Origin: Candidatus Coatesbacteria bacterium
GTDB taxonomy: Bacteria; RBG-13-66-14
Length of the DNA stretch: 60,904 nucleotides
Direction: 5' to 3'
Assembly: GCA_014728225.1 (NCBI GenBank)
Contig: WJLX01000079.1
Span: forward strand, 1-60,904
The translations under genes were made by a program, and so were the position numbers. Below, one piece after another: positions 40,966 through 57,164 of this stretch; within the stretch, counting starts at the first letter, position 1; each line of letters starts with the position of its first letter. Below the pieces are notes generated by a model, which worked only from the letters and a program-made list of their open reading frames with translations, did no database searches and had not been told where the DNA came from.

Positions 40966-41174
40966 CGCCGGACAACCGTTGAAAAACAGCCCGCCGGCTA
41001 CTCCCCACTGCGTCGGGAACGGCAAAGTGCCGGAACTGGCACGGTTTTTGCGGAGGCGAACCGTTATCGTCGTCCGCAACGGTCGCCGAGATGCAAAAAC
41101 CGTGCCAGTTCCGGCATCGTGGTTCTCGCAACGCCGCGGATCGTCTGGGGCTGTTTTTCAACGGTTGTCCGGCG
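40966..41174. repeat. Nested-palindrome element, copy 7
   Basis: Perfect ~27-bp outer IR cgccggacaaccgttgaaaaacagccc; conserved inner core. Confidence 0.95.
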
Positions 41175-41315: not shown

Positions 41316-41519
41316 ATGCGACCTGTGTGTCGACTGCTCGAGCACTGCCCACTGATCCGCAAGCTGCAATCCAAGGAGGCCGCCGAACTCTTCATCCTGC
41401 TCTACTGTCGCGGCGACTGGCGTCGCTGCCGCCGTTGGCTCGCCTACTTCCGGGGCGAAGTCGTGCCCGACGATCTGACCCCAAACGGTCGTCGGTTGGA
41501 CAGCCGGGCGGCGGGTTGA
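41316..41519 (+). CDS. Small Cys-rich hypothetical protein (67 aa)
   Basis: C.....C...YC.GD...C.R...VP.DL.P pattern; GGGAGGTG SD; followed by a hairpin. Confidence 0.72.
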   Translation: MRPVCRLLEHCPLIRKLQSKEAAELFILLYCRGDWRRCRRWLAYFRGEVVPDDLTPNGRRLDSRAAG

Positions 41520-41669: not shown

Positions 41670-44600
41670 GTGATGAAGGACGAGCGAAAAACCAAAGCCC
41701 AGCTCATCGAGGAGCTCAAGGAGCTCCGCCGCCGCCTGGCCGAGTTGACCAGCGAGACGGTGGCCGAGCTTCGCGGGCGGGGGGAGGTCGTCGACGCCGC
41801 CGAGAAGAGCGGTGTCGATCTCTACCGGCTGCTGGTCGAGCACGCCCCCGTCGGGGTGCTGCTGGCCGATACCGGGGGCAATCTTAAGCTGGTCAACGAG
41901 AAGCTGGTTGAGCTCCTCGGCTCGCCCTCGACCGAACTGACCCTGGCCATCAATCTGCTGGAGTTCCAACCCCTGGTCGAGTCCGGTTTCTCCGGGCTGT
42001 TCAAGAGCGCCGCCGACGGCGGTGAAACCCTGGTCCAGGAGCTTTCGTACCGCTCCCACTGGGGCCGCGAGCTGGAGGCCCGGGTCCAGCTCACGCCGAT
42101 TCTGAATGCCGATGACAGGGTAGAGGCCGTCCTCGGGCTGATCGAGGACGTCAGCCGGGTGAAGCTGATGGAGCGGGCTCTGGAGCAGACCGAGCACCGC
42201 TACGAGACCCTGCTGGACCTAGTGCCTGACGGCGTGGTCATCGTCGACGAGGAGTTGATGGTTGGGGCCGTCAACGACCGGGCCCTGGAGATTCTGGGAC
42301 GGGGGAACAGGGCGAAGCTGTTGGGGACCGACGGCTTGGCTCTGCTGGGCGGTCGCGAGGCCGACAAGGCCGCGGACAATGCCGAGAAACTGCGCGCGTT
42401 GGGCCGCACCCGTGGGGCGGAATACGAGTTGCGCCGCCCCGACGGTGAAACGATCATCGTGGGGGTGCGGGCCTCTGTGCTGGGAACCGCGGAGCGTCCC
42501 GCGGGCTACCTGGTGATCCTGCGCGATCTGACGGATTATCGGCGGGCCGAAGAGCGTCTGCGTCGCAGCGAGGAGCGCCTGCGGGAGGTCGTCGAGGGCG
42601 CCGAGCTGGGCTACTGGGACTGGGATATCGCCGCCGGCACCTTGCACCTCAATGAGCGTTGGGCTTCAATGCTGGGCTACAGCCTGGACGAGGTCGAAGC
42701 CAGCTACGAGGGTTGGCGGGAACTGGTCCATCCCGAGGACCTGGAACGGGTGGAAAGCGAGCTTCAGCGCCACCTCGACGGCGAGAGCGAGGCCTACGAG
42801 TGCGAGTACCGGATGCGGTCCGCGGACGGCGGCTGGAGTTGGATCCTCAGCCGGGGCAAGGTGCGCGAGCGCGACGTCGCCGGGCAGCCGTTACGCGCCG
42901 CCGGCATCCACCAGGACGTCGGTAAGCGCAGGCGGGCAGAACTGGAGCGCGACGAGAGCCGCCGCCGGCTGCAGTCCTTTGTCGAGAAAGTCCCCGACGT
43001 GCTCTACCGGGCGGATCTGCGCGCCAAGCGTTTCGAGTTTTTGGCGTCCTCGGTGGAGCGGATGCTCGGCTATCCCTACGGGGAGGTCTGGAACGACTTC
43101 AAGAACTTCACCCTCAAGGTGTTGCATCCCGACGATCGTGAGCGCGTCGAGGACGAGGTCCGGACCTTCATCGGCAATGGTCCCCGGGACGAGACCCTGG
43201 AGATCACGGCGCGGATGATCCGCTCCGACGGCCGGATCATCTGGGTCCGCGACAGCATCCGCTACGAGTGGGACGATGAGGGTCTGGCGATCGTCAACGG
43301 CGTAATGACCGACATCACCAGCCAGGTGGAGACCGAGCAGAGCTATCGGGCCCTGGTCGAGGAAGCCCTTGTCGGCGTCTACATCTTCCACCCCCCCGCC
43401 GAACCCGACGATCCGGGACGTTTCATGTTCGTCAACGACGAGATGAGCCGGATCACCGGTTACTCCAAAGACGAACTGCTGGCCCTGGACACCGGCGAGC
43501 TGACCCATCCCGACGATCATCGCCCGCTGATGGATCGGATGGCTGAACGCCTCGAAGGTCGGGAAGTGCCCAGTCGCTACACCATGCGCATCCGGCGCAG
43601 GGACGGTAGGACGGCGGTGCTGCGCGTCTCGACGCGGCCGATCACCTACCGCGGCCGCCAGGCGTTCCTGGGTAACTGCTCCGACGTCACCGAAACGGTC
43701 AACTACGAGGAGGAACTCCAGAGCCGGGTCAAGCACAGTGAGACCCTGGCGGATCTGTCCGGGGTCTTCTTCGAAACCGCGGGTCGGGAGGAGATCCTCT
43801 CCCGGGCCGCCGATCTGCTGGCCGAGTCCTTTCCGGTTTTCGTCAGCCTGAACCTGCTCGACGCGGAGCGGGGTAAGCTGGTAATGGCCGAGTACCGCAC
43901 CGACGACAAGCTGCTCAATTTCCTCAACGATCTCGTCGGTCGGCCGCTGGACGGCTGGGAGATTCCCCTGGATCAGGATTCGGTCATCAGCCGGACGATG
44001 ACCAGCGGTCGCCCGACGGTCTGCGGCCTGGATTTCACCCCGGACGAGGAGGTCGAGAAAACGACCCTGGTCGAGATGCTGCGGGCGATGGTCGAGGAGA
44101 AGAGCCCCCTGCGCCGGCTGGCCGGGCGGGCGGCCAAACGGATGGGCGCCGCCGGGCTGCTGGGCATTCCCTTCATCGACTCCAGCGGCCGGATCGTCGG
44201 CTCATTGACGGTCTTGTCGCGGGAGACCTTCGGTCGGGACGACTACAATCTGGCCAAGGTGGCCGCCGACCAGATCGGCCGCGCCCTGGAACAGCACCGC
44301 CTCAACGAAGAGCTACGCGCATCCGAGGAGCGCTTCCGCAGCGTCTTCTCCAACGTCCATCTCGGCGTCTACCGCACAACCCCGGACGGCCGCATCCTGC
44401 TGGCCAACCAGGCCATGGTCGAGATGATGGGCTTCACGACCCTCGAGGAGCTGCTGGACCACAACCTGGAGACCAACGGCTACCAGCCCCAGCTCTCCCG
44501 GGCGGACTTCAAGCGGGAGCTCGAGGAGCGCGGCGAGATCGTCGGCCGGGAGTACACCTGGACCAAACGCGACGGCCGGACGCTCTACGTCCGGGAGAGC

Positions 44601-47600
44601 GCCCGGGCCGTGCGCTCCCCCGACGGCACGGTGCGTTACTACGAAGGCACCGTCGAAGATCTGACCGAACGGCGGCGTACCGAGCAGGCCCTGGCCGATA
44701 GCGAGGAGCAGTACCGCCTGCTGGCCGAAACCGCCGACGACGTCATCATCATCCACGACATCCAGGGTCGGATCATCTATACCAATCCCGCCGGTGTGGA
44801 CAAATTGGGCTACACAGCCGCGGAACTGATCGGAAGCCCCATCGACGATTATCTCGCCAACAGCGGCGACACGGCTATCGACGAGCGACGCCGACGGCGC
44901 CGGGCCGGTGAGCAGGGCGTTTTCTCCTATGAACGCGAGGTTGTGGCCAGGGACGACCGCCGCCTGCTGATGGAGATCAACTCCTCGATGATCGAGCGCG
45001 AGGGTGAGCCGTGGGGCATCCTGCTGATCGCCCGGGACATCACCGAGCGTCGCAGCGCCGAGCTGGAACTCGAGCGGGCCAACGCCCGCCTGCGGGCCCT
45101 GGTGGAGGAGAAGGAGGCCGCCGAGGAGCGCTACCGCAGCCTGCAGGAGAACCTGCCCCTGGGCGTCTACCGGGTCACCCCGGCCGGGGAGTTCATCGAG
45201 GTCAACGACGCCTTTGTCAAGCTCTTCGGTTTCACCGATCGGGAGGAGCTCTTCCAGCGGCGGGCCGTCGAGCTGTACGTGGACGAGGAACGCCGCACGG
45301 AGCTGATGGAGGCCATGCGCCGCGACGGCGTGGTCAACGGCTTCCAGGCCCGCCTGCACCGGGCCGACGGCCAAACCTTCTGGGTCTCGATCGACGTCCG
45401 CGCCGTGCGCGACGCCGCCGGTGAGGTCGTCTATCACGACGGCATCCTGACCGACATCTCGGCGGTCAAGCGCGCCGAAACCGTCCGCGAGGTTCTGTTC
45501 AACATCGCCAACGCCATCAACACCTGCGAAAGCACCGACGAGCTCTACCCCCTCATCCACCGCAACCTGTCGCGGATCATCGACACCACCAACTTCTTCA
45601 TCACCCTCTACGACCGTGAGCCCAACCTTCTCGTCTTCCCCTACTACGTCGACAGCAGGAAAGAGAGTCTGACGGAGTTCCCGGCCGAGCAGACGGTCAG
45701 CCACTACGTCATCCGCAGCGGCGAGACCCTGCTGGCCGACGACGAAGTCTTCGACGAGCTGATCGAACGGGGCGAGATCGCCCCCCGGGGCCGGATGGCC
45801 AGCCCCCGGGTCTGGCTCGGAGCGCCGCTCAAGCGCGGCGATGAGGTCTTCGGTGTGGTGGCCGTCCAGAATTACGACGATCCGCGAACCTACGACGAGC
45901 ATGACCGCGAGCTGCTGGAGACGGTCTCCAGCCAGATCGCCAACGCCGTCGACAAGCTGCGGACCGAACGGGCGCTGCGCGATTCGGAGAACCGCTTCCG
46001 CACCCTCTACGAGAACATGGCCGGCGGAGTGCTGATCATCGATGAGGAATACGTCATCCGCGACATCAACGAGCACACCTGTCAGATCACCGGCTACGAC
46101 CGCGCAGAGCTGGTCGGCGAACCGTGCGACATCATCTGTCCCAAGGGCTCCGATTCCGGTGAGTGCCCCATCTGGGCCGAGGGCCAAGACGGCTTCCGCG
46201 GGATGGATACCACCATCAAGTGCCGCGACGGGCGGCTGAACCCGATCCTGAAAAACGCCAATCGTATCGAGCTCGACGGTCGGACCTACATCATTGAGAA
46301 CTTCCAGGACATCTCCGACGTCAAGCGCGCCGAGACCGTTCAGGACGTCCTGTTCGCCATCGCCAATTCGATCAACACCTGCGAGCGCCTCGACGACCTC
46401 TACCCGATAATCCATCGCAACCTGGCCCGGGTCCTGGAAACCACCAACTTCTTCATCGCCCTCTTCGACGAGTCCAGCAACACCCTGCGCTTCCCCTACT
46501 TCGCCGACGTCGACGAGATCCTCAAGGAGTACCCGGCCGAAAAAACCCTCTGTCATTACGTCGTCCGCCGGGCCGAGGCGGTGCTCGTTGATTCTGCAGG
46601 CTTCGATGAACTCGCTGAAACCGGGGAGATCGAACCACGTGGCGACCTCAAACGACCCCGCGTCTGGCTGGGCGCGCCGCTCAAGCGCGGCGACGAGGTC
46701 TTCGGCGTGGTGGCCGTTCAGAGTTACGACGACGACGCGGCCTACAACGACGACGACCGGGAGCTGCTGCAGCTGATCGCCCACCAGATCGCCAACGCCG
46801 TCGACGAACTCCAGGCCGAGCAGGCCCTGCGGGAGAGCGAGGAGCGCTTCCGGCGGATGGCCGACAACATCTCCGACGGCCTGGCGATCATCGAGGACGG
46901 CCGCGTCGTCTATGTCAACGAGCGGTTGTGCGAGATCCTCCAGCGCGAGCGCGCCGAGATCGAGGCCGGGCTGACCGGGATCGACATCGCCGCCCCCGAC
47001 GAGGTCGAACGCCTCGAGCGCCTGCGCCGCCGAACCCTGGAGAGCGGTGAGCCCCTCCGCTCGCTGGAGTTCTGGATCGAACGCCCCGACGGCGAGCGCC
47101 GCTGCATCCACAACCGCTACTCCCACAGTATTACCCCGGACGGCGTTCGAAACCGCTACGTGGTCACCTCGGACATCACCGAGCGCAAGCTGGCCGAGCG
47201 CGCCCTGCGGGAGAGCGAGGACAAGTTCCGCCTGATCAGCGAGAACTCGCTGATGGGTATCCTGATCCTCCAGGAAGGGGTGATCAGGTACGCCAACCGG
47301 GCGATGACCGACCTGACCGGCTATACCCCGGAGGAGCTGCTGGCCTGGGATCCCGGCGAGTTCGCCCGCCTGATCCATCCCGAGGATCGGGGCTTCGTCA
47401 TCGAGCAGAGCACGAAAAAGCAGCGCGGCGAAACCACGGGGATCATCCCTCATTACTCCTACCGCGGCGTGGCCAAGGACGGCAGGATCGGCTGGATCGA
47501 CCAGTACTCCACCTCGATCTCCTATCAGGGGGCTCCGGCGGTGCTGGTGATGATGGTCGAGATCACCGAGCAGAAGCGGGCCGAGGAGGCGTTGCAGGAA

Positions 47601-50600
47601 TCCGAGCGCTTCAACCGCGCCGTCGTCGAGCACCTGCCCCTGGGGGTCAGCGTGCGCACCACCGAGGGCCGCCTGATCCTGGCCAACGAGGCCTGGCGCC
47701 GCATCTGGGCCGTACCCGAGGACGAACTGGCCCGGGATCGCTCCGCGACGCGCGGTGAGTTGAGCTTCGACGAGCGTGACCATTACCTGGGCGACTGGCG
47801 CGACAAGGTCCGCAGCATCTACAGCGAGGGCGGCTACCTGCACATCCCGGAACTGGCGGTACTCGAGCCCCGGCCCGGCGGAGCGTTATGGGTCTCCCAG
47901 CACTTCTACGCCCTGACCGACGCCGACGGCGTCGTCAACCGGGTGGTGATCCTGACCGAGGACATCACCGAACGCAAGTTGGCCGAGGAGAAAGAACGCG
48001 AATACATCACCCACCTGTCCCTGTTGACGGAAACGGCGCTGGACTTCGTCCGGATGGATCCGGGCACCGACATCTTCGCCTACCTGGCCCGACGACTCTG
48101 CGGAATGCTCGACAACGCCCTGGTCACCGTATCGCAATACGACGCCCGGACCGAGCGGATGAAGGTGCGCTCGATTGAATGCTCGGCCGCTGAAGCCCCG
48201 CCGCTGGTGACCAGCCTGTGCAATAATCCCGAGCTGACCTACGAGCTGCCCGGTGAGGGCGACGTCAAGAGCCTGCACGGCGAGCTGGAGATCTACCCCT
48301 TCGACGACAACGTGCTGAAGCAGTGGGGGGTGCCCGACGAGCTGGTCGAGGGCCTGGCTGGGGAGCTGGGCGTCGAGGTGATCGCCTCGATGGGCCTGGT
48401 GCGCGAGGGCGTCCTCTACGGCATGGTCGATATCATCCTCCTCAACGGCGCCCGGATGACCAAGGGCGAGGTGGTGGAGACCTTCCTCAACCAGGCCTCG
48501 GTAGCGCTGCAGCGCACGCTGTCCGAGCGGGCCCTGGCCGAGAGTCGCGAAGCGCTGAGCCAGTACGCCGACAATGTGGCCGACGTCCTCTACCGCATCA
48601 ATCTCGAGCAGAACCGCTTCGAATTCGTCTCCCCGGCGGTGGAGCAGGTCTTGGGCTATGGAGTCGACGAGGTGATGCACCGTAGCGGCTTCGCCTTCAC
48701 CGAGGTCCTGCCCGCGGAGGAGAAGGACGCCTTCCTCGAGCGCCTGCGGGGCTTCCTCGCCACCGGTCCGACCGAGCGTCCCCTGGTCTTCGAGAGCCGG
48801 CTGCAGCGCCGTAACGGTGAGCTTTTCTGGGCCCGGCATTCGATCCGCTACGAGTGGGACGACGACGGCCACCCAGTGGCCGCCAGCGGCATCCTCTCCG
48901 ACATCACCGAGCGCAAGCGCACCGAGCTCGAGCTGGCGGATAGCGAGGAACGCTTCCGCCGCTTCGCCGGCGCCGTCACCGACACCATCTACCGCTTCGA
49001 CATCCGCCGCCAGGCCTACGACTTCATCAGCCCCTCCTGTGAGCGCCTGACCGGCTACAGCGCCGAGGAGTTCATCGAGGGGGCCCACGACATCTGGCGC
49101 CGGATCATTCATCCCGACGACATCGAGATGGTCTACCGCAAGCTCGACGAGCAGAGCGCCCAGCGTCGCCGCGAACACCGCTTCAGCATGGACTACCGTA
49201 TCCTGCACAAGGACGGCCGGACGATCTGGGTCAACGAGCGCGGCGACTACGAACTCGACGAGAACGGCGAGATCCGCAGCTACAACGGCGTCATCCGCGA
49301 TATCAGCGAAACCCGTGAGGCCGAGGCGGCTCTGGCGGAAAGCGAGCGGACCTACCGCAGCCTCTACGACACCACCCTGGCCCTGGCCGACGAACGCGAA
49401 CTCAGCAAGACCATCGCCGTCATCGCCGAGCACGCCACCAACCTGCTGGGCGCCGAGGAAAGCCATTTCTTTCTCCTCGACCACGACCACGGCGTCCTGC
49501 GGCCGATCTACACCAACAACGCCGCCTTCGCCGCCGAGATGGAGAGCTTCGAACTGCCCCTGGGAACCGGGCTCACCGGCCTGGTGGCCCAGAGCGGTCG
49601 GGGGCGCTTCATCAACGCCGGCGATCCCGAGCTCGAGCACGCCGTCCATCTGCCGGGCACCGATCCGGCGGTCGACGTCACCGAATCCCTGATCAGCGTG
49701 CCGGTCTTCGACGGCGAGCGGGTCAGCGGGGTGCTGACCCTGGGCAGCGGCCGCAGCCGCTTCGACGACGAGGATTTGCAGCGCCTGACCGTCTTCGCCC
49801 GTCAGGCCGAGATCGCCGTCAAGCGCGCCCGCTACCTCGAGCGCCTGGCCGAGTCCGAGGAGGTCTACCGCAGCCTCTATCAGACCACCCTGGCCGTCAC
49901 CGACAAGACCGATCTCGACGAGGTTCTAGAGGTGCTGGTCAACCAGGCCGGCAAGCTGCTCAAGGCGCGTTACTGCACCATCTACCGCCTGCTGCCCCGG
50001 CGCGGCGTCCTCCAGCCGCTCAAGACCACCTCCGCCGAGACCTACGATCAGGTGATGGCCTACCAGGTCGAGCTGGGCCGGGGGCTGACCGGCACCGTGG
50101 CCCGCACCGGCGTGGGCCGTTACGTCAACGCCGGCGACGAGGACCGCTCGGTCATCGCCCAGCTACCGGGAACGGAAAGCGAACTCGATCAGTACGAATC
50201 CCTGCTCTGCGAGCCGATCCTCGACGGCGACGAGGTCAGCGGTGTACTGACCCTTTCCAAGCTCTACGCCGCCTTCGATGATCGCGACCAGGAGATAATC
50301 CGCATCTTCGTCCACCTGGTCTCCCTGGCCCTGCGCCGGGCCGAGAACGTCGCCGCGCTGCGCGAGAGCGAACAGACCTACCGTCGGCTCTACGACACCA
50401 CCCTGGCTTTGGCCGACACCGACGAACTCGAGGTCTCGATCCGGGTCATCGCCGAGCACGCCGCCGAACTGATCGACGCCGCCGTCTGCATCTTCTACCG
50501 CTACGACGAGGAGCGGGAGAAGCTGGTCCCGATCTATACCAACGAACCCGAGGAACCCGACGAGGTGATGAGCTTCGAGGCGCCCCTGGGGATGGGGTTG

Positions 50601-53600
50601 ACCGGTCGCGTGGCCCAGAGCCGCCGCGGCGCCTACTCCAACTACGACGAAGACCAGCGCCCCGTGGCCACCATCCCGGGCACGACCAATCAGAGTAAAA
50701 CCAACTCCCTGATCGCCGTGCCCATCTCCGACAGCGATGAGTTGCTCGGGGTGATGACCCTGATCGCCCCCCGGCGGCGTTTCACCGACGAGGACCTCAA
50801 CCGCCTGGGCATTTTCTCCCGCCAGGCCGAAATCGCCGTCAAGCGCGCCCGCTACCTCAACGCCCTGGCCCAGAGCGAACAGACCTACCGCCGACTCTAC
50901 GACACCACCCTGACCCTGGCCGACACCGACGAGCTGGCGACGGCCGCCGAAGCTATCGCCCACCAGGCCAAGCTGACCCTGGAATCCCACTTCTGCATCG
51001 TCTTCCTCTACGAAGCCGACGACGAGCGGCTGGTGCCGCTCAGCGTCGACGCCCCCGCAGCCGTCGAGGAGCTCAAGGCGGCCGTCATGGCCCTGGGTGA
51101 GGGCCTGACCGGTCGGGTGGCCCGGGATCGGGAGGGAGCCTACGTCAACTATGACGAGCCGGAGCGCAAGGACAGGCACGTTCCGGGCACACCGGCCGAG
51201 GACGACGAGCGCCAGTCGACCATCGCCGAACCGATCATGGACGGCGAGAATCTGCTGGGCGCCGTCACCCTGGGGACCTACGACCGTCGCTACGATGACG
51301 ACGACCTGACCCAGCTGCGCGTTTTCGCCCGGTTGGCCGCCATCGCCGTCAAGCGTAACCAGTACATCCGGGCCCTGGCCGAGGGCGAGGAGACCTACCG
51401 CCGGCTCTACGAGACGACCCTCGTCCTGGCCGACAACGACGACCTGGACGAGGTCGTCGCCGTGATCGGCGACCAGGCGACCCAGATGCTCGATTCCAAC
51501 TTCTGCATCGTCTACACCTTCGACGAGGACGAGCAGGTCCTGCGACCGCTCTACACCAACACCGACACCGATCCGGACACGATCTATTCCTTCCGGCTCA
51601 AGCCCGGCGAGGGCCTGGTGGGCAGGGTGGCCGTCGAGCGCCGGGGTGCCTACGACAACTACAACGACCTCGAGCGCAAGGTCGTCTACATCGAGGGCAC
51701 CGACGACTCGACCGATCACCTGCAGTCGATCATCGCCGAACCGATCACCGACGGCGACCGCCTGCTCGGTGTCCTCTCCATCGGCCAGGTCGAGCGGGTC
51801 TACAACGAGGCCGACCTGGGGAAGCTGCGCATCTTCGCCCGCATGGCCGCCGTCGCCATTCTGCGCACGCGCAACCTCCACGCCCTGGCCGAAAGCGAGG
51901 AGAAACACCGCACCCTGGTCGAGCAGGCCACCGACGGCGTGATCATCGTCCAGGACGGCCTGATCAAGCTGGCCAATACGGCGATGGCCGAGCTTTCCGG
52001 TTTCTCCATCGACGAGCTGGTCGACACCCCCGTCAGTGAATATATCGATCCGGCGGACATCGACAAGGTGATGGACAACTACCGGCGGCGCCTGAACGGC
52101 GAAAGCGACGTGCCCCATATCTACGAGATCCAGGGCCTGACCAGGGACGGCAAACGTATCCCCCTGGAGCTCAACGCCGGGGTGATGACCTATCTGGGCC
52201 AGCGCGCCGTGCTGGTGCTGGTGCGCGACATCACCGAACGGCTCGAAGCCCGGGAGAGCATCCGCCAACTCAACTCCACCCTGCGGGCCCTGCGCAACAT
52301 CAGCCAGTTGATCACCGTCGAGAAGAACCCCGCCGAGCTGATCGACGGCGCCTGCGAGCAACTGACCCAAAGTCACTACGACCAGGCCTGGATCGTACTG
52401 CTCGACGACGACGGCGACGTCACCACCATGGCCTACCGCAGTTCCTTCGACAAGTCCCTTGAGGAGTCGGGCTATGAAACGACGGCCGATCTGCCCTTGT
52501 GCCTGCGGCGGATCGCCGAAGCCGAAGACAACGTCCTCGCCGGAAACTGCGACGACTGCCCCCTGTTCGACAACGGAAAAGTGAGTTATCTGGCCGCGCG
52601 TCTCGAATACGGCGACCGCGTTTTCGGCTATCTGTCCCTGGGCGGCATCGAAGGCAACGTCCCGGAGCGCGAGGAACGGGAGCTGATCGTCGAGCTGGCC
52701 AACGACCTGGCCTTCGCCCTGTACTCGATCGGGCTGGAGCGCAGCCAGGCCGAGACCGAGCGCCGCTCCCGCTACTACGTCGAGCACATCTCCGAGGGGG
52801 TCTGGTGCTTTGAACTCGAGCCCCTGTCCCTGGAGCGGCTCAGCGACCCCGCCCTGCGTGAAGCCAATCTCGAGCTGCTGTTTTCCGGGATCTGCGTGGA
52901 GTGCAACGACGCCCTGGCGGAGATGTACCTTACCCGGCGCGAGGAGCTGCTGGGCCGGCGGATGAGTGAGGTCTTCCCCCGGCGCGAAACCCTCCTCGAA
53001 CACCTGCAGCGCTTCCTGGACAACGACTGCCGCCTGGACAACAGCGTTTTCGGCGAGCTAACCCCCGCGGGCGAGCAGCGCTGGTTCATCGCCAGCATGT
53101 TCGGCGAGATCGTCGACGAACGCCTGGTCCGGCTCTGGGGTCGGCAGCTCGACATCACCGAACAACGTCGCGCCGAGGCCGAGCGTGATCGTCACCGCCG
53201 CGAGGTCCAGGCCATCTTCGACAACATGGACATCATGCTCTGGAGCATGCGCCTCGATGACGAGGGCTACCTGTACTACGAGCAGGTCAACCGCCCCTTC
53301 GCCGCCGTCGAGGGCCGAACGCCGGATTTCTACAACGGCGAGCGGATCGTCGATATCGCCGCCCCGGAGCAGGTCGCCGCCATGCGTCGGCGCTTCGAGC
53401 ATATCGCCGACGGAGCCGTCCACTCCTACGAACTCGATGTCGGCGCCGGCGAAAACCGGCGGGCCTTCGACATCCGGCTGATCCCCCTGCCCGAGGCCGG
53501 CGGCGAGGTCCGCTGGTTCATCGGCACCGCCATCGACGTCACCCGGCGCAAGCAGGCCCTGGAGGCCCTGCGGGAGAGTGAGGAGAAGTACCGGGCCTTC

Positions 53601-55460
53601 ACCGAAGAGGCCATGATCGGGGTCTACATCCTCAGCGGCGATGAGTTCATCTTCGTCAACCATCAAATGGAGGTTATCTCGGGTTACCCGGCCGCAGAGC
53701 TGCTGCGGATGGATCCCGTCGAGCTGGCCCCGGAAGCCGATCGCGGGAAACTGCTGGAACGCCGGCGCAGCCGGGGCACCGACGCCGGACTCTCCCCCGA
53801 GTTCATCACCCGCCTGGTCCGTAAGGACGGCGAGATCCGCAACGTCGAGATCCACGCCCGGCCGATCACCCTCGAGGGCAAAACCGCCATCCTGGGCAAC
53901 CTGATCGACATCACCGAGCGGCGGCGGGCCCAGCAGGCCCTGGCCGAAAGCGAGGAGCGCTACCGCTCCATCTGGAACCGCTCGCCCATCGGCATCTGCC
54001 TGACCGACCGCGGCGGCGATCTGACGATGGCCAACCCGGCCCTGTGCGGCATGTTGGGCTATGACGAGGACGAACTCATCGGCAGCCGCTTCTACGACCT
54101 GTTGATCTTCGCCTACGATGAAAGCGAAAGCGGGGTCGAGGGACTGCTGTCCGGCAAACTCGATACCCAATCCTACCGCAACCAGTTCTCCCTGTTCAGC
54201 GGCAAGCCGACGGAGCTGGTCATGCGTCGCAAGGACGGCGGCTTGCTGCCCGTCGAGTTCACCGTGGACTTCATCTCCCGCGAAGGCTCGGTGCGCTACA
54301 TGATCGCCCTGATCACCGATATCACCGAGCGCAAGCGTGCCGAGGAGGCCCGGGCCAACTATCAGGCCGACCTCGAGCGCGAGGTGGCGGCCAAGACCGA
54401 GCAGCTCAGCATCGCCCGCCGCTACCTGCGCGACGTGCTGGACTCCTCGGGCGAGCTGATCACCGTCTGCGACGCCGCTGGCAACCTGGAGATCCTCAAC
54501 CGCACCGCCGCCTCGCTGACCGGCTACGACGAAGACGAGGTCCTCGGCGAACACATCTCGCTGTTCTACTATCAGAAGGACCTCAAGCTGCTCGGGGAAA
54601 TCCACAAGCGCATGACTGACGGCGGCGGTACGGCGGTGTTCCAGGTCGATATCCGCTGCCAGGACGGCAGCCCCCTGCCCGTCGAGCTGTCCGTCTCGCC
54701 CCTGCACGACGAGAACGGTGATTTCACCGGCTCCGTCGGCATCGCCCGCAACCTGCAGGAGATAGAAGACCTGCGCAAGGCCCTGCTGCAGTCGGAGAAG
54801 CTGGCCGCCATCGGCAAGCTGGCCGCCAGCATCGCCCACGAGGTCAACAACCCCCTCGGGGTGATCAAGAACTACCTGCAGATCGCCAAGCTGGACCTGG
54901 AAAGCGGCTCGGAGAAGTACCGCCTACTGGGGATCATCGAGGAGGAGGTCCAGCGCATCGTGCGGATCATCCAGGGCCTGCTCAACTTCTACCGCCCCGA
55001 AAGCACCACCGTGGTGGCCACCGATATCAACCGCATCATCGAGGACCTGTTGCTGCTGGTAGGTATCCAGCTCGAGAAGAACGACATCAGCGTCGAGAAG
55101 AATCTCGCCGAGACCCTGCCGCCCGTCATCGTGGCCCCGGACCAGTTCCGTCAGATCATGCTCAATCTGGTCACCAACGCCCAGGACGCCATGCCCGACG
55201 GCGGCGTGCTGGGCCTGGGCACAGCCTTCCGGGAGGGCCACGTAATCATCACCGTCAGCGACACCGGCCACGGGATCGCCAAGGGCGACCTGCCCAACAT
55301 CTTCGATCCCTTCTTCACCACCAAGGGCCAGAAGGGCACCGGCCTGGGCCTCTCGATCAGCTACGGCCTGATCAAATCCTTCGACGGCGAGATCGAGGTC
55401 GACAGCCGACCGGGACAGGGCTCGACCTTCACCATCCATCTGCCCAGCCGGGAAGCCTGA
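41670..55460 (+). CDS. Giant cytoplasmic multi-PAS/GAF sensor histidine kinase (4596 aa)
   Basis: About 20 PAS/PAC modules (ending in DITE-like motifs) and about 10 GAF modules; HisKA AASIAHEVNNPL; HATPase NLVTNAQDAM, DTGHGI, FDPFFTTK, GTGLGL; no TM segment seen. Confidence 0.93.
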   Translation: MMKDERKTKAQLIEELKELRRRLAELTSETVAELRGRGEVVDAAEKSGVDLYRLLVEHAPVGVLLADTGGNLKLVNEKLVELLGSPSTELTLAINLLEFQPLVESGFSGLFKSAADGGETLVQELSYRSHWGRELEARVQLTPILNADDRVEAVLGLIEDVSRVKLMERALEQTEHRYETLLDLVPDGVVIVDEELMVGAVNDRALEILGRGNRAKLLGTDGLALLGGREADKAADNAEKLRALGRTRGAEYELRRPDGETIIVGVRASVLGTAERPAGYLVILRDLTDYRRAEERLRRSEERLREVVEGAELGYWDWDIAAGTLHLNERWASMLGYSLDEVEASYEGWRELVHPEDLERVESELQRHLDGESEAYECEYRMRSADGGWSWILSRGKVRERDVAGQPLRAAGIHQDVGKRRRAELERDESRRRLQSFVEKVPDVLYRADLRAKRFEFLASSVERMLGYPYGEVWNDFKNFTLKVLHPDDRERVEDEVRTFIGNGPRDETLEITARMIRSDGRIIWVRDSIRYEWDDEGLAIVNGVMTDITSQVETEQSYRALVEEALVGVYIFHPPAEPDDPGRFMFVNDEMSRITGYSKDELLALDTGELTHPDDHRPLMDRMAERLEGREVPSRYTMRIRRRDGRTAVLRVSTRPITYRGRQAFLGNCSDVTETVNYEEELQSRVKHSETLADLSGVFFETAGREEILSRAADLLAESFPVFVSLNLLDAERGKLVMAEYRTDDKLLNFLNDLVGRPLDGWEIPLDQDSVISRTMTSGRPTVCGLDFTPDEEVEKTTLVEMLRAMVEEKSPLRRLAGRAAKRMGAAGLLGIPFIDSSGRIVGSLTVLSRETFGRDDYNLAKVAADQIGRALEQHRLNEELRASEERFRSVFSNVHLGVYRTTPDGRILLANQAMVEMMGFTTLEELLDHNLETNGYQPQLSRADFKRELEERGEIVGREYTWTKRDGRTLYVRESARAVRSPDGTVRYYEGTVEDLTERRRTEQALADSEEQYRLLAETADDVIIIHDIQGRIIYTNPAGVDKLGYTAAELIGSPIDDYLANSGDTAIDERRRRRRAGEQGVFSYEREVVARDDRRLLMEINSSMIEREGEPWGILLIARDITERRSAELELERANARLRALVEEKEAAEERYRSLQENLPLGVYRVTPAGEFIEVNDAFVKLFGFTDREELFQRRAVELYVDEERRTELMEAMRRDGVVNGFQARLHRADGQTFWVSIDVRAVRDAAGEVVYHDGILTDISAVKRAETVREVLFNIANAINTCESTDELYPLIHRNLSRIIDTTNFFITLYDREPNLLVFPYYVDSRKESLTEFPAEQTVSHYVIRSGETLLADDEVFDELIERGEIAPRGRMASPRVWLGAPLKRGDEVFGVVAVQNYDDPRTYDEHDRELLETVSSQIANAVDKLRTERALRDSENRFRTLYENMAGGVLIIDEEYVIRDINEHTCQITGYDRAELVGEPCDIICPKGSDSGECPIWAEGQDGFRGMDTTIKCRDGRLNPILKNANRIELDGRTYIIENFQDISDVKRAETVQDVLFAIANSINTCERLDDLYPIIHRNLARVLETTNFFIALFDESSNTLRFPYFADVDEILKEYPAEKTLCHYVVRRAEAVLVDSAGFDELAETGEIEPRGDLKRPRVWLGAPLKRGDEVFGVVAVQSYDDDAAYNDDDRELLQLIAHQIANAVDELQAEQALRESEERFRRMADNISDGLAIIEDGRVVYVNERLCEILQRERAEIEAGLTGIDIAAPDEVERLERLRRRTLESGEPLRSLEFWIERPDGERRCIHNRYSHSITPDGVRNRYVVTSDITERKLAERALRESEDKFRLISENSLMGILILQEGVIRYANRAMTDLTGYTPEELLAWDPGEFARLIHPEDRGFVIEQSTKKQRGETTGIIPHYSYRGVAKDGRIGWIDQYSTSISYQGAPAVLVMMVEITEQKRAEEALQESERFNRAVVEHLPLGVSVRTTEGRLILANEAWRRIWAVPEDELARDRSATRGELSFDERDHYLGDWRDKVRSIYSEGGYLHIPELAVLEPRPGGALWVSQHFYALTDADGVVNRVVILTEDITERKLAEEKEREYITHLSLLTETALDFVRMDPGTDIFAYLARRLCGMLDNALVTVSQYDARTERMKVRSIECSAAEAPPLVTSLCNNPELTYELPGEGDVKSLHGELEIYPFDDNVLKQWGVPDELVEGLAGELGVEVIASMGLVREGVLYGMVDIILLNGARMTKGEVVETFLNQASVALQRTLSERALAESREALSQYADNVADVLYRINLEQNRFEFVSPAVEQVLGYGVDEVMHRSGFAFTEVLPAEEKDAFLERLRGFLATGPTERPLVFESRLQRRNGELFWARHSIRYEWDDDGHPVAASGILSDITERKRTELELADSEERFRRFAGAVTDTIYRFDIRRQAYDFISPSCERLTGYSAEEFIEGAHDIWRRIIHPDDIEMVYRKLDEQSAQRRREHRFSMDYRILHKDGRTIWVNERGDYELDENGEIRSYNGVIRDISETREAEAALAESERTYRSLYDTTLALADERELSKTIAVIAEHATNLLGAEESHFFLLDHDHGVLRPIYTNNAAFAAEMESFELPLGTGLTGLVAQSGRGRFINAGDPELEHAVHLPGTDPAVDVTESLISVPVFDGERVSGVLTLGSGRSRFDDEDLQRLTVFARQAEIAVKRARYLERLAESEEVYRSLYQTTLAVTDKTDLDEVLEVLVNQAGKLLKARYCTIYRLLPRRGVLQPLKTTSAETYDQVMAYQVELGRGLTGTVARTGVGRYVNAGDEDRSVIAQLPGTESELDQYESLLCEPILDGDEVSGVLTLSKLYAAFDDRDQEIIRIFVHLVSLALRRAENVAALRESEQTYRRLYDTTLALADTDELEVSIRVIAEHAAELIDAAVCIFYRYDEEREKLVPIYTNEPEEPDEVMSFEAPLGMGLTGRVAQSRRGAYSNYDEDQRPVATIPGTTNQSKTNSLIAVPISDSDELLGVMTLIAPRRRFTDEDLNRLGIFSRQAEIAVKRARYLNALAQSEQTYRRLYDTTLTLADTDELATAAEAIAHQAKLTLESHFCIVFLYEADDERLVPLSVDAPAAVEELKAAVMALGEGLTGRVARDREGAYVNYDEPERKDRHVPGTPAEDDERQSTIAEPIMDGENLLGAVTLGTYDRRYDDDDLTQLRVFARLAAIAVKRNQYIRALAEGEETYRRLYETTLVLADNDDLDEVVAVIGDQATQMLDSNFCIVYTFDEDEQVLRPLYTNTDTDPDTIYSFRLKPGEGLVGRVAVERRGAYDNYNDLERKVVYIEGTDDSTDHLQSIIAEPITDGDRLLGVLSIGQVERVYNEADLGKLRIFARMAAVAILRTRNLHALAESEEKHRTLVEQATDGVIIVQDGLIKLANTAMAELSGFSIDELVDTPVSEYIDPADIDKVMDNYRRRLNGESDVPHIYEIQGLTRDGKRIPLELNAGVMTYLGQRAVLVLVRDITERLEARESIRQLNSTLRALRNISQLITVEKNPAELIDGACEQLTQSHYDQAWIVLLDDDGDVTTMAYRSSFDKSLEESGYETTADLPLCLRRIAEAEDNVLAGNCDDCPLFDNGKVSYLAARLEYGDRVFGYLSLGGIEGNVPEREERELIVELANDLAFALYSIGLERSQAETERRSRYYVEHISEGVWCFELEPLSLERLSDPALREANLELLFSGICVECNDALAEMYLTRREELLGRRMSEVFPRRETLLEHLQRFLDNDCRLDNSVFGELTPAGEQRWFIASMFGEIVDERLVRLWGRQLDITEQRRAEAERDRHRREVQAIFDNMDIMLWSMRLDDEGYLYYEQVNRPFAAVEGRTPDFYNGERIVDIAAPEQVAAMRRRFEHIADGAVHSYELDVGAGENRRAFDIRLIPLPEAGGEVRWFIGTAIDVTRRKQALEALRESEEKYRAFTEEAMIGVYILSGDEFIFVNHQMEVISGYPAAELLRMDPVELAPEADRGKLLERRRSRGTDAGLSPEFITRLVRKDGEIRNVEIHARPITLEGKTAILGNLIDITERRRAQQALAESEERYRSIWNRSPIGICLTDRGGDLTMANPALCGMLGYDEDELIGSRFYDLLIFAYDESESGVEGLLSGKLDTQSYRNQFSLFSGKPTELVMRRKDGGLLPVEFTVDFISREGSVRYMIALITDITERKRAEEARANYQADLEREVAAKTEQLSIARRYLRDVLDSSGELITVCDAAGNLEILNRTAASLTGYDEDEVLGEHISLFYYQKDLKLLGEIHKRMTDGGGTAVFQVDIRCQDGSPLPVELSVSPLHDENGDFTGSVGIARNLQEIEDLRKALLQSEKLAAIGKLAASIAHEVNNPLGVIKNYLQIAKLDLESGSEKYRLLGIIEEEVQRIVRIIQGLLNFYRPESTTVVATDINRIIEDLLLLVGIQLEKNDISVEKNLAETLPPVIVAPDQFRQIMLNLVTNAQDAMPDGGVLGLGTAFREGHVIITVSDTGHGIAKGDLPNIFDPFFTTKGQKGTGLGLSISYGLIKSFDGEIEVDSRPGQGSTFTIHLPSREA

Positions 55461-55644: not shown

Positions 55645-56778
55645 ATGTCCTCTACCACCAGCAGCACCGAACGCCGACGCCGTGTCGGCCCGCAGATCGA
55701 GCGCATCCTCGTCATCGACGATGAGCGGCGGATGTGCGAATCGATTCGCATCCTCCTCGAGAAGGAAGGCTACCGCGTCGTCACCGCCGCCGACGGCTCC
55801 GAGGGTATCGAGAAACTCAAGAGCGAGCGCTTCAGCCTCTGCATCGTCGACCTGATGATGCCCAAGGTCGACGGCTTCGAGGTGCTGGCCTACGTCCGCA
55901 ACAACCTGCCCCAGACCCTGGTGATCGTCATTACCGGCTACTCGTCGATGCGTTCGTCGATCGAGGCTCTGCGCGGCGGTGCCTACGACTACCTGACTAA
56001 GCCCTTCGACTTCGATATCTTCAAGCTGACCGTCGAGAAGGCCCTCGACAAGCTGCGCATCCAACGCCTCAACGACGAGTTCATCTCGATGATCACCCAC
56101 GACCTGAAAAACCCGCTGACCTCGATCATCGGCTACTGCTCGTTATTGCTCTCCGGCGCCTACGGCAAACTCGCCGGCGAGATCCTGCCACCCCTCGAAG
56201 GCATCAACACCAACGCCGAGCGCTTGCTCGACCTGATCAACGATTTCCTCGTCGTCAACAAGATCTCCGCCGAGGGGCTCAAGCTCGAACGCCAGCCCAT
56301 CCAGCTCAACAGCCTGCTCGAGCACCTCTCCGACAACGTCCAGGCCCAACTGGAGATCAAGAAGATCCACTTCACCCTGCGCCTCGACGCCGATATCCCC
56401 CCGGTCAAGTGCGACGCCCTGCAAATCGAACGGGTGATCAACAACCTACTGTCCAACGCCGTCAAGTTCACTCCGATGGGCGGCAGTATCTCGATTGCAT
56501 CGGGCGCCGACGACGACTGGGTCTGGTTCGCCGTCACCGACACCGGCACGGGCATCCCTCCCGAGCAACAAGAAGACATCTTCCAGAAATACTCGCGCAT
56601 CGACAAGAAGACCGAGGGCACCGGCCTGGGCCTGTTCATCACCAAGAGCATCGTCGACCTCCACCAGGGCTTGATCGAGATCGAGAGCACCCCGGGGGAG
56701 GGCTCGACCTTCACCGTCCGTCTACCCCTCCACCCCCCCGAAGAAAACACCGACGGTAACGGCGGCGGCGGCGGTTAA
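55645..56778 (+). CDS. Hybrid receiver-histidine kinase (REC-HisKA-HATPase)
   Basis: ILVIDDE, IVDLMMP (phospho-Asp), YLTKPF; MITHDLKNPL; NLLSNAVKFT, DTGTGI, GTGLGL. Confidence 0.93.
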   Translation: MSSTTSSTERRRRVGPQIERILVIDDERRMCESIRILLEKEGYRVVTAADGSEGIEKLKSERFSLCIVDLMMPKVDGFEVLAYVRNNLPQTLVIVITGYSSMRSSIEALRGGAYDYLTKPFDFDIFKLTVEKALDKLRIQRLNDEFISMITHDLKNPLTSIIGYCSLLLSGAYGKLAGEILPPLEGINTNAERLLDLINDFLVVNKISAEGLKLERQPIQLNSLLEHLSDNVQAQLEIKKIHFTLRLDADIPPVKCDALQIERVINNLLSNAVKFTPMGGSISIASGADDDWVWFAVTDTGTGIPPEQQEDIFQKYSRIDKKTEGTGLGLFITKSIVDLHQGLIEIESTPGEGSTFTVRLPLHPPEENTDGNGGGGG

Positions 56779-56905
56779 ACCAACCCGGGCGTCGACGTGT
56801 TACAATCTCGCGTGAAAACGAGCCTCGAACGCGGGCTCGCTTTTAGCGACGGGGCCGCACGTAATAATGGGCAGCCCACGACAAAGACCGGCACCGCTGA
56901 ACGAC

Positions 56906-57098
56906 GGCGCAAGACCCTTGAAAGCCCGGCCCGACGACCAGGCTCGTCTCCGCCCCGGAACCGGCACGGTTTTTGCGGAGGCGGACCGTTGTCGTCGCAC
57001 CAACGGGCGCCGAGATGCAAAAACCGTGCCGGTTCCGGGGCGGGTGGGGTCTCAGCGAAAGGCACAGGCCCCGGCGGGGCTTTCAAGGGTCTTGCGCC
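56906..57098. repeat. Nested-palindrome element, copy 8
   Basis: Perfect 22-bp outer IR ggcgcaagacccttgaaagccc; conserved inner core. Confidence 0.95.
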
Positions 57099-57164
57099 TT
57101 TGCGCCGCTGCCGACGTTTTTGACCCCGCTATCGCCCTATCTTACCACCCGGAGTGATCGCAAC

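What the first reader, a model, noticed from the sequence alone, without database searches (positions are those of the whole stretch)
41670..55460. 4596-aa soluble histidine kinase with about 20 PAS and 10 GAF modules
Seen: a single uninterrupted 13.8-kb ORF with no TM helix. Order by manual count: PASx5-GAF-PASx3-GAF-PAS-GAF-PASx3-GAF-PASx2-GAFx5-PAS-GAF-PASx5-HisKA-HATPase. Established: most histidine kinases have a few sensor domains, so about 30 on one kinase is extreme. Inference: it may act as a long helical signal-integrating rod or scaffold, feeding the adjacent REC-HK in a phosphorelay.
Basis: partly seen in the sequence, partly recalled or inferred. Interest (0 to 1): 0.7.

Follow-up and report, generated by a model that had tools for sequence, protein, structure and literature searches.

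The report
Record-size 30-sensor-module histidine kinase
An uncultured Coatesbacteria bacterium really does encode an intact 4,595-residue soluble sensor kinase with 20 PAS and 10 GAF modules, the longest kinase found in these searches, but it is an extreme member of a known class, not a new kind of system.

Summary
Window 41673-55460 (+) is one intact gene for a 4,595-aa, 520-kDa protein with no membrane helix. Its order is PASx5-GAF-PASx3-GAF-PAS-GAF-PASx3-GAF-PASx2-GAFx5-PAS-GAF-PASx5-HisKA-HATPase.

All 20 PAS modules and 8 GAF modules pass Pfam cut-offs one by one. A ninth GAF misses by 0.4 bit. The tenth is invisible to Pfam but folds as a GAF (pLDDT 91.6).

It is not a mis-assembly:
- five records carry a protein of the same length;
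- a strain 5% diverged keeps the frame open, with dN/dS 0.18;
- a sister genus has a 4,551-aa ortholog in the same gene order;
- internal DNA repeats are only 62-81% alike.

The 30 modules are old and distinct, and each is closer to its ortholog than to its paralogs.

Predicted long single helices join the modules. A Rec-controlled kinase follows the gene in three genera. Both fit a helical multi-input integrator that feeds a second kinase, but this is inferred.

Soluble multi-PAS/GAF kinases of 2,500-4,130 aa are widespread, so this is the top of a known distribution. No larger one turned up in two searches of 5.8 billion proteins.

The parts
41673..55460 (+). Giant sensor histidine kinase gene (4,595 aa from the ATG; the GTG at 41670 opens the frame one codon earlier)
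   Evidence: dN/dS 0.18 against strain variant L002
41566..41594 (+). Sigma-70-like promoter match (TTGCCG-17-TAGAAT with TG), 79 nt upstream of the ATG
   Evidence: a consensus match only
41670..41849 (+). N-terminal charged coiled-coil-like leader (aa 1-60), conserved in relatives
41850..43691 (+). PAS1-PAS5 (aa 61-674)
43692..44360 (+). GAF1 (aa 675-897), long ~200-aa GAF subtype
   Evidence: Pfam GAF 29.1 bits against cut-off 22.4; also hit by the GAF-X HMM
44361..45461 (+). PAS6-PAS8 (aa 898-1264)
45534..45950 (+). GAF2 (aa 1289-1427); 62% identical to GAF3, the only recent internal duplicate
   Evidence: DNA repeats D5, D6 and D8
46023..46316 (+). PAS9 (aa 1452-1549) with four conserved Cys (1471, 1486, 1490, 1499)
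46389..46802 (+). GAF3 (aa 1574-1711)
46875..47969 (+). PAS10-PAS12 (aa 1736-2100)
47970..48581 (+). GAF-X (aa 2101-2304): divergent GAF that Pfam does not see
   Evidence: no Pfam hit; 876 homologs; AF2 pLDDT 91.6; Foldseek matches GAF folds
48582..49307 (+). PAS13-PAS14 (aa 2305-2546)
49308..51932 (+). GAF4-GAF8 tandem array with its linkers (aa 2547-3421), period 169-171 aa, conserved across the family
   Evidence: AF2 gives five GAF folds joined by 45-46-residue helices
51933..52235 (+). PAS15 (aa 3422-3522)
52302..52739 (+). GAF9 (aa 3545-3690) with four conserved Cys (3562, 3611, 3627, 3630)
   Evidence: GAF_2 28.2 bits against cut-off 28.6, full-length match
52812..54758 (+). PAS16-PAS20 (aa 3715-4363)
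54813..55004 (+). HisKA (DHp) domain; phospho-acceptor His4390 at 54837-54839 in AHEVNNPL
55137..55451 (+). HATPase_c catalytic domain; N, G1, F and G2 boxes readable in the sequence
55645..56778 (+). Downstream partner: REC-HisKA-HATPase_c (377 aa, D69, K119, H152), a Rec-controlled histidine kinase
   Evidence: synteny in L001, L002, L009, L010; no + strand terminator match in the 184-nt gap

Best explanation
This is a real, intact and selectively maintained gene of a Candidatus Coatesbacteria bacterium. It encodes a cytoplasmic class-I (HisKA/HATPase_c, AtoS/ZraS-like) sensor histidine kinase of 520 kDa per chain.

Shown here:
- It has 20 PAS and 10 GAF modules, each distinct.
- The modules are conserved one by one with a 4,551-aa ortholog.
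- Every module is under purifying selection.
- The kinase motifs are complete.
- The gene order alpha-2-macroglobulin, giant kinase, REC-HisKA-HATPase, FemAB is conserved in three genera.

Inferred mechanism:
- Like other HisKA kinases, it acts as a parallel homodimer.
- The modules are strung on fixed-length helical connectors: 24 residues between PAS cores, and single 45-46-residue helices between GAF cores. These run into the DHp helix.
- Ligand, cofactor or redox changes in several modules bias this helical spine. Candidates are the conserved Cys clusters in PAS9, GAF9 and PAS16.
- The summed effect sets autophosphorylation of His4390.
- The phosphoryl group most likely goes to Asp69 of the downstream, probably co-transcribed Rec-controlled kinase, which is switched on and signals to an unidentified regulator.

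The protein grew stepwise by inserting and duplicating whole modules. Related proteins (those carrying the related GAF array) are about 680-2,200 aa in other families of the phylum. True orthologs are about 3,000-3,460 aa in a sister genus and 4,551-4,595 aa in this genus and its nearest neighbour.
For: The ORF and its domains.

The GAF fold of the module Pfam cannot see.

The gene is not an artefact:
- Five records hold a protein of the same 4,595-aa length, on contigs of 32-79 kb; four of them differ from the window's protein at 15-230 residues.
- One variant differs at 703 nt and 230 aa, has no stop or frameshift, and gives dN/dS 0.18, with every module below 1.
- Seven full-length records hold a 4,551-aa ortholog.
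- Internal DNA repeats are only 62-81% identical, with a single 77-nt stretch at 91%.

Module history:
- Modules are 43-81% identical to their orthologous modules.
- Most paralog pairs are below 40% identical.

The helical spine:
- Linker lengths.
- AF2 of the five-GAF array.

The partner:
- Conserved synteny, with a 3-nt gap in genus g4.
- The partner has the canonical D, K and H residues.
- The activation mechanism of Rec-controlled kinases is described in PMC13269768.

The kinase core scores best against AtoS and ZraS models.
Against: All genomes involved are metagenome bins.

No module could be assigned a ligand. There is no LOV motif, no NKFDE motif and no phytochrome-type Cys-His context, and PAS9 and GAF9 have no close solved structure.

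The AF2 multi-domain model has pTM 0.36, so an extended rod is not demonstrated.

The AtoS/ZraS-like core usually pairs with NtrC-type regulators, so the true acceptor may lie elsewhere among the 19 REC proteins of the genome.

A 184-nt gap separates the two kinase genes in this genome.
Confidence: 0.72

Rival explanations
1. Assembly artefact. The 13.8-kb ORF would be a chimera or a repeat-driven mis-join of several shorter PAS/GAF kinase genes.
For: The genome is a 181-contig metagenome bin. The protein is built of repeated module types. Reads could not be examined.
Against: Five records hold a protein of identical length, and four of them differ in sequence from the window's protein. A strain 5% diverged is collinear with no indel. 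A 59%-identical ortholog of 4,551 aa appears in seven records with the same flanking genes. Internal DNA repeats are 62-81% identical, too low to confuse an assembler.
Confidence: 0.02
2. Mostly a scaffold or spacer. Only a few modules near the kinase sense anything. The rest form a structural rod, or a docking platform for other proteins, and do not act as independent inputs.
For: No cofactor or ligand motif was recognised in any module. Signal transmission through about 30 modules has no known precedent. The N-terminal modules PAS1-PAS4 found no collinear orthologs in the shorter genus-g4 proteins, only weak or no matches.
Against: Every module is under purifying selection, with dN/dS 0.04-0.78. 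Each keeps its own identity against its ortholog. Conserved Cys clusters in PAS9, GAF9 and PAS16 look like functional sites. Selection on a scaffold would produce some of these patterns too, so this rival is not excluded.
Confidence: 0.2
3. The neighbouring REC-kinase is not the phospho-acceptor. The giant kinase would serve an unlinked NtrC-type (sigma-54) regulator, and the neighbour would be an independent or upstream element.
For: The kinase core scores best against AtoS and ZraS models, whose partners are NtrC-family regulators. The genome has several REC proteins of 450-530 aa, and sigma-54-like boxes are abundant. In this genome the two genes are 184 nt apart.
Against: The two genes are adjacent in three genera and 3 nt apart in one of them. 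No + strand terminator match lies between them here. The neighbour's REC domain has all its phospho-acceptor residues. The AtoS and ZraS scores are far below the family cut-offs.
Confidence: 0.2
4. The locus yields several nested products. Internal starts or internal promoters would give shorter kinases with subsets of the sensor modules, and the full-length protein would be rare.
For: None directly. The gene is very long, and many in-frame ATG and GTG codons exist.
Against: The reading frame and the N-terminus are conserved across genera. The number of sigma-70-like matches in the scanned region, only one of them inside the gene and that on the opposite strand, is no higher than in shuffled sequence.
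Confidence: 0.08

Closest known systems
Large soluble multi-PAS/GAF sensor histidine kinases ('PAS domain S-box proteins'), e.g. the 3,706-aa Cyanothece sp. PCC 7425 kinase and the 4,130-aa candidate division KSB1 protein
   Same: Cytoplasmic. Long tandem arrays of PAS (and GAF) modules, mostly joined by 24-residue linkers, ending in HisKA-HATPase_c.
   Different: This one is longer (4,595 aa) and has more modules (30, against at least 24 and at least 21 by the same HMMs). It mixes 10 GAFs with 20 PAS, including a conserved five-GAF block. None of these proteins has been characterised.
LvrA-LvrB of Leptospira: an upstream kinase activating a Rec-DHp-CA 'Rec-controlled' kinase (PMC13269768)
   Same: The downstream gene has the same Rec-HisKA-HATPase_c architecture and size (377 aa) with intact Asp and His. 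It follows a sensor kinase, as LvrB is activated by LvrA.
   Different: Only weak, sub-threshold similarity to the Lvr family models was seen: the neighbour lists the LvrA model and the giant kinase's core the LvrB model. No equivalog-level relation exists. The downstream regulator is unknown here, and phosphotransfer is untested.
Tandem GAF regulatory modules joined by long helices (GAF-A/GAF-B of PDE2/5/6 and CyaB adenylyl cyclases; phytochrome PAS-GAF-PHY)
   Same: GAF cores are connected by one continuous long helix. The fold matches are to phytochrome and cyanobacteriochrome GAFs. The comparison with PDE and CyaB rests on general knowledge.
   Different: There are five GAFs in a row, and ten in all. 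There is no NKFDE cyclic-nucleotide motif and no bilin-type Cys-His context. The output is a histidine kinase.
Multi-PAS/GAF redox kinases MsmS and RdmS of Methanosarcina (reviewed in PMC6944256)
   Same: Soluble kinases with alternating PAS and GAF modules. One senses through a heme and the other through thiols. The conserved Cys clusters here suggest comparable redox modules.
   Different: Those proteins have only a few modules and lack a phosphorylatable His. Here the canonical H-box is present.

Membership tests
Class I sensor histidine kinase (HisKA + HATPase_c) | DHp/HisKA domain with a phospho-acceptor His in an H-box | tested here: met
   PF00512 scores 42.1 bits against cut-off 26.9 at aa 4382-4445. 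H4390 lies in SIAHEVNNPLG.
Class I sensor histidine kinase (HisKA + HATPase_c) | Bergerat-fold ATP-binding domain with N, G1, F and G2 boxes | tested here: met
   PF02518 scores 88.8 bits against cut-off 26.4 at aa 4490-4594. NLVTNAQDAM, DTGHGI, FDPFFTTK and GTGLGLS can be read in the translation.
Class I sensor histidine kinase (HisKA + HATPase_c) | Autophosphorylation and transfer to a receiver Asp | not testable with these tools
   This needs purified protein. Only a candidate acceptor (D69 of the neighbouring gene) was identified.
PAS domain (Pfam clan PAS_Fold) | Each claimed module reaches a Pfam PAS-family gathering score on its own | tested here: met
   20 of 20 modules pass when scanned singly. 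The weakest are PAS1 at 30.1, PAS12 at 30.8 and PAS16 at 30.7 bits, all above their cut-offs.
GAF domain | Each claimed module reaches a Pfam GAF-family gathering score, or shows the GAF fold | tested here: met
   Eight modules pass Pfam. GAF9 scores 28.2 against 28.6 with a full-length alignment, so it is marginal. GAF-X has no Pfam hit, but its AF2 model (pLDDT 91.6) matches GAF structures at probability 1.0, TM about 0.6.
Multi-step phosphorelay (His-Asp-His-Asp with an HPt) | An HPt domain or protein between two receiver steps | tested here: not met
   No PF01627 (Hpt) hit in the giant kinase or its neighbour. The neighbour is Rec-HisKA-HATPase_c, so this is a kinase cascade and not a classical relay.
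Rec-controlled histidine kinase (LvrB type), for the downstream gene | N-terminal receiver with the conserved Asp and Lys, followed directly by DHp-CA | tested here: met
   Response_reg 98.8, HisKA 54.7 and HATPase_c 105.6 bits. D69, K119 and H152 are present. Activation by phosphorylation was not tested.
Phytochrome / cyanobacteriochrome photoreceptor | Bilin-binding Cys (Cys-His context) in a GAF, or the PAS-GAF-PHY knot | tested here: not met
   There is a single 'CH' dipeptide (aa 1628, in GAF3). By eye its context does not look phytochrome-like. The Cys is Ser in the paralog GAF2 and in the genus-g2 ortholog, though it is kept in the genus-g4 proteins. The Foldseek matches are at the level of the GAF fold only.
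LOV / cyclic-nucleotide GAF sensors | NCRFL flavin-Cys motif; NKFDE motif | tested here: not met
   Regex scans found neither motif.

The most novel reading that the evidence does not exclude
The roughly 1-MDa dimer would form a rod about 100 nm long, a sizeable fraction of the cell's length. This is a rough estimate from 30 modules at about 3.5-5 nm each, not from a model. In this reading the protein computes a combined output from a dozen or more distinct inputs carried along one continuous coiled coil. Alternatively it doubles as a spatial scaffold or ruler that positions the Rec-controlled kinase and envelope enzymes (A2M, FemAB). Either way it would be the longest allosteric wire known in two-component signalling, held in a 3-Mb genome that concentrates about half of its PAS domains in this one protein.
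Probability: 0.15. Interest if true: 0.7.

Novelty: new member of a known kind. Interest (0 to 1): 0.4.

Why it matters
How a signal sensed in one PAS or GAF module travels through helical linkers to a kinase core is an open mechanistic question, and it has been studied on proteins with one to three sensor modules.

A natural kinase with 30 distinct modules, each individually conserved and under purifying selection, suggests that very long sensor arrays are functional and are not junk. It offers a natural series of about 3,200, 4,551 and 4,595 aa for asking three questions: how many inputs one kinase can integrate, whether distal modules still control output, and how modules are gained.

The work also exposes a widespread GAF subfamily of about 200 aa that Pfam does not cover (876 homologs in the library).

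In practical terms, the finding shows that the annotation 'PAS domain S-box protein' hides the largest histidine kinase found in these searches.

Tried and rejected
- Repeat-collapse artefact. Rejected, because internal DNA repeats are only 62-81% identical.
- Pseudogene. Rejected, because dN/dS is 0.18 with no frame disruption over 703 differences.
- Heptad-quantised linkers. In this protein the PAS-PAS linkers of 17, 24 and 38 residues looked like steps of seven. Across 64 other giant kinases the distribution is simply a sharp peak at 24, with a second peak at 20. I claim only a fixed linker length, not heptad phasing.
- Ligand assignment. No LOV, NKFDE or bilin motifs. PDB sequence searches with PAS9 and GAF9 found nothing useful.
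- A sequence-profile search of GAF-X against the PDB gave only E about 0.4 to a GAF-containing kinase. The fold search was needed.
- The 67-aa Cys-rich ORF upstream as a conserved partner. Rejected, because it is absent from the loci of the other two genera and has no paralog in this genome.
- A literature figure for the record number of PAS domains per protein. The relevant review (PMC3298442) is not held, and full-text searches gave no census.
A 677-aa piece was used instead.
Full report
**What is in the sequence**

The window is one whole 60,904-bp contig (C33) of a 2.96-Mb, 181-contig genome bin. The bin is 96.8% complete and 0.42% contaminated.

An uninterrupted frame runs from 41670 to 55460 on the + strand: 4,596 codons from a GTG. 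The next codon is ATG (41673). Database records of the same protein have 4,595 residues. The N-terminus MKDERKTKAQL is conserved in relatives, so the gene most likely starts at 41673.

It is the longest ORF of the genome and takes up 0.47% of the assembly. The protein is 520 kDa with pI 4.8. No 19-residue window exceeds a Kyte-Doolittle mean of 1.47, and the N-terminus is a charged helix-like segment. It therefore has no membrane helix and no signal peptide.

**Domain count**

Whole-protein Pfam scanning finds PAS-clan families, GAF families, one HisKA (aa 4382-4445) and one HATPase_c (aa 4490-4594). HMMs built from the protein's own modules delimit 18 PAS and 7 GAF. The gaps left over hold one GAF, one GAF-like module, one marginal GAF and two divergent PAS.

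I then scanned each of the 30 modules separately:
- All 20 PAS modules exceed a Pfam PAS-family gathering score.
- Eight GAF modules exceed a GAF gathering score.
- GAF9 (aa 3545-3690) scores 28.2 bits against a cut-off of 28.6, with a full-length alignment.
- The module at aa 2101-2304 has no Pfam hit at all.

That last module has 876 homologs at E <= 0.001 in a 1.84-billion-protein representative library, always inside signalling proteins. A 31-sequence alignment gave an AlphaFold model with mean pLDDT 91.6. Foldseek matched the model to GAF domains of cyanobacteriochromes, phytochromes, a sigma-54 regulator (3K2N) and PtsP (3CI6), at probability 1.0 and TM about 0.6. It is a divergent GAF, and GAF1 belongs to the same ~200-aa subtype.

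The architecture is therefore PASx5-GAF-PASx3-GAF-PAS-GAF-PASx3-GAF-PASx2-GAFx5-PAS-GAF-PASx5-HisKA-HATPase.

**Is the gene real?**

- Five records (JGI, NCBI, ENA), on contigs of 32-79 kb, carry a protein of the same 4,595-aa length. One is the window's own. Three differ at 15-16 residues, and one differs at 230 residues.
- The DNA of the 230-residue variant (L002) differs from the window at 703 of 13,788 positions. It has no indel and no stop.
- Nei-Gojobori dN/dS against that variant is 0.18 overall and below 1 in every module, ranging from 0.04 to 0.78.
- A second cluster holds a 4,551-aa ortholog in seven full-length records. Two partial members are labelled Candidatus Coatesbacteria.
- The internal DNA repeats are only 62-81% identical, apart from one 77-nt stretch at 91%. 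That is far too diverged to mislead an assembler.

A chimera or a pseudogene is thus very unlikely.

**Evolution of the array**

Module by module, the 4,551-aa ortholog is collinear with this protein at 43-81% identity. The exception is aa 1150-1940. There, this protein has a duplicated GAF (GAF2 and GAF3, 62% identical), while the ortholog has additional PAS modules instead.

Within the protein, all other paralog pairs are old. The five tandem GAFs are 33-49% identical to one another, and most PAS pairs are below 35%. Each module is closer to its ortholog than to any paralog. The 30 modules are therefore individually maintained and are not a recent amplification.

Across 30 relatives in the genome collection:
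- the sister genus g2 has an open frame of 4,593 codons;
- genus g4 of the same family has frames of 3,000-3,360 codons;
- other families of the phylum carry proteins of 680-2,200 aa with the related GAF array.

The g4 proteins (3,241-3,458 aa when complete) share GAF1-PAS6, PAS12, the five-GAF block, PAS15 and the PAS19-PAS20-kinase core. They lack GAF-X, GAF9 and PAS16. The giant arose by stepwise gain of whole modules.

**How rare is it?**

Two searches of a 5.8-billion-protein collection admitted candidates up to 1.75 times the query length. One used this protein as the query and the other used the 4,130-aa KSB1 protein. Together they returned about a hundred soluble multi-PAS/GAF kinases of 2,300-4,130 aa. 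These came from Cyanobacteria, Chloroflexota, Bacteroidota, KSB1, Nitrospira and others. None was longer than this protein and its ortholog.

By the same HMMs, the 3,706-aa Cyanothece PCC 7425 kinase has at least 24 PAS and the KSB1 protein at least 21. Earlier notes of this scan also describe soluble kinases of 1,700-3,000 aa with up to 13 GAFs, judged to be ordinary family members.

The finding is therefore the top of a known, broad distribution and not a new kind. The searches score only the candidates that share most words, so 'largest found' is not a census.

**Anatomy that bears on mechanism**

The kinase core is complete. H4390 sits in AHEVNNPL, and the N, G1, F and G2 boxes are present. 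Its best NCBIfam scores are to AtoS and ZraS, far below their cut-offs, which gives a class resemblance only.

Linkers are strikingly regular:
- six of the ten PAS-to-PAS junctions that could be measured are exactly 24 residues;
- all four GAF-to-GAF junctions are 31 residues between HMM envelopes;
- in 64 other giant kinases, 245 of 363 PAS-PAS linkers are also 24 residues.

AlphaFold on aa 2547-3421 used 8 aligned sequences and gave pLDDT 81.7. It predicts five GAF folds joined by single uninterrupted helices of 45-46 residues, plus a 41-residue exit helix. The GAF-X model likewise has a 27-residue entry helix and a 38-residue exit helix.

The pTM of 0.36 means the overall shape is not determined. 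I looked for heptad phasing of linker lengths and do not claim it.

No known cofactor motif was found. Three modules carry Cys clusters conserved between genera: PAS9 has four, GAF9 has four and PAS16 has three. These are candidate metal, Fe-S or thiol redox sites, by inference only.

**Neighbours and output**

Immediately downstream (55645-56778) lies a 377-aa Rec-HisKA-HATPase_c protein with the canonical D69, K119 and H152. The gene order is alpha-2-macroglobulin, giant kinase, Rec-kinase, FemAB, an ORF of about 76 aa, then a protein of about 600 aa. This order is conserved in all three genera. In genus g4 the kinase stop and the Rec-kinase start are 3 nt apart.

In this window the gap is 184 nt with no + strand terminator match. 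A strong terminator and a sigma-70-like match lie upstream of the giant gene.

The Rec-kinase is 78% identical to its genus-g2 ortholog, so it is better conserved than the giant.

Rec-DHp-CA kinases are activated by phosphorylation of their receiver. LvrB, activated by the upstream kinase LvrA, is the prototype (PMC13269768). The most likely wiring is giant kinase to Rec-kinase to an unknown regulator. Neither protein has an HPt domain, so this is a kinase cascade and not a classical phosphorelay.

The genome has about 13 kinase and 19 receiver ORFs. The giant holds roughly half of the genome's PAS domains. A second giant kinase of 3,150 aa lies on another contig.

**Verdict**

The helical architecture and the linked Rec-kinase fit the evidence, but signal integration, rod shape and phosphotransfer are inferred.

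This is a new and extreme member of a known kind, the soluble multi-PAS/GAF histidine kinase. It is of moderate interest as a natural test case for long-range signalling through modular helical arrays.

Noticed in passing
window 41316-41519 (+): A 67-aa Cys-rich ORF (MRPVCRLLEHCPLIRKL...) lies between the macroglobulin gene and the giant kinase. The strain variant encodes the identical protein despite 9 nucleotide differences, all synonymous, so it is probably a real gene. It has no Pfam hit, is absent from the other two genera's loci and has no paralog in this genome.
   Followed up: partly
window 40970-41171 and about 56900-57100: Two copies of the ~200-bp nested palindrome with facing sigma-54-like boxes (TGGCACGgttTTTGC) bracket the kinase and Rec-kinase pair. 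The box occurs 16 times in the window against 1.3 expected. They belong to the repeat family already described for this genome in earlier notes.
   Followed up: partly
window 47970-48581 (aa 2101-2304) and 43692-44360 (aa 675-897): A ~200-aa GAF subtype ending in 'ETFxNQASVALQR' is widespread: 876 homologs at E <= 0.001 in the representative library. Pfam essentially does not see it, with only 4 of 31 members giving weak GAF hits. This is a candidate for a new family model.
   Followed up: yes
genome contig C23:12730-22179 (-), outside the window: The same genome holds a second giant kinase: a 3,150-codon open frame with at least 11 PAS and 2 GAF, followed by a 518-codon REC-containing open frame. 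The sister genus also has a second giant frame of 3,659 codons.
   Followed up: no
window 35237-40888, 57165-58229, 58966-60786; loci L001, L002, L009, L010: The gene block is conserved in three genera: bacterial alpha-2-macroglobulin (1,883 aa), giant kinase, Rec-kinase, FemAB-family transferase, an ORF of about 76 aa, then a protein of about 600 aa with only faint beta-propeller-like hits. This hints that the kinase pair may regulate a cell-envelope function.
   Followed up: partly
window 46023-46316 (PAS9), 52302-52739 (GAF9), 52812-53183 (PAS16): These modules carry Cys clusters conserved between the two genera. PAS9 has C-x14-C-x3-C-x8-C. GAF9 has four Cys, including CxxC. PAS16 has CxxC plus one more Cys. 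They are possible metal, Fe-S or thiol redox sensing sites, and no solved structure is close.
   Followed up: partly
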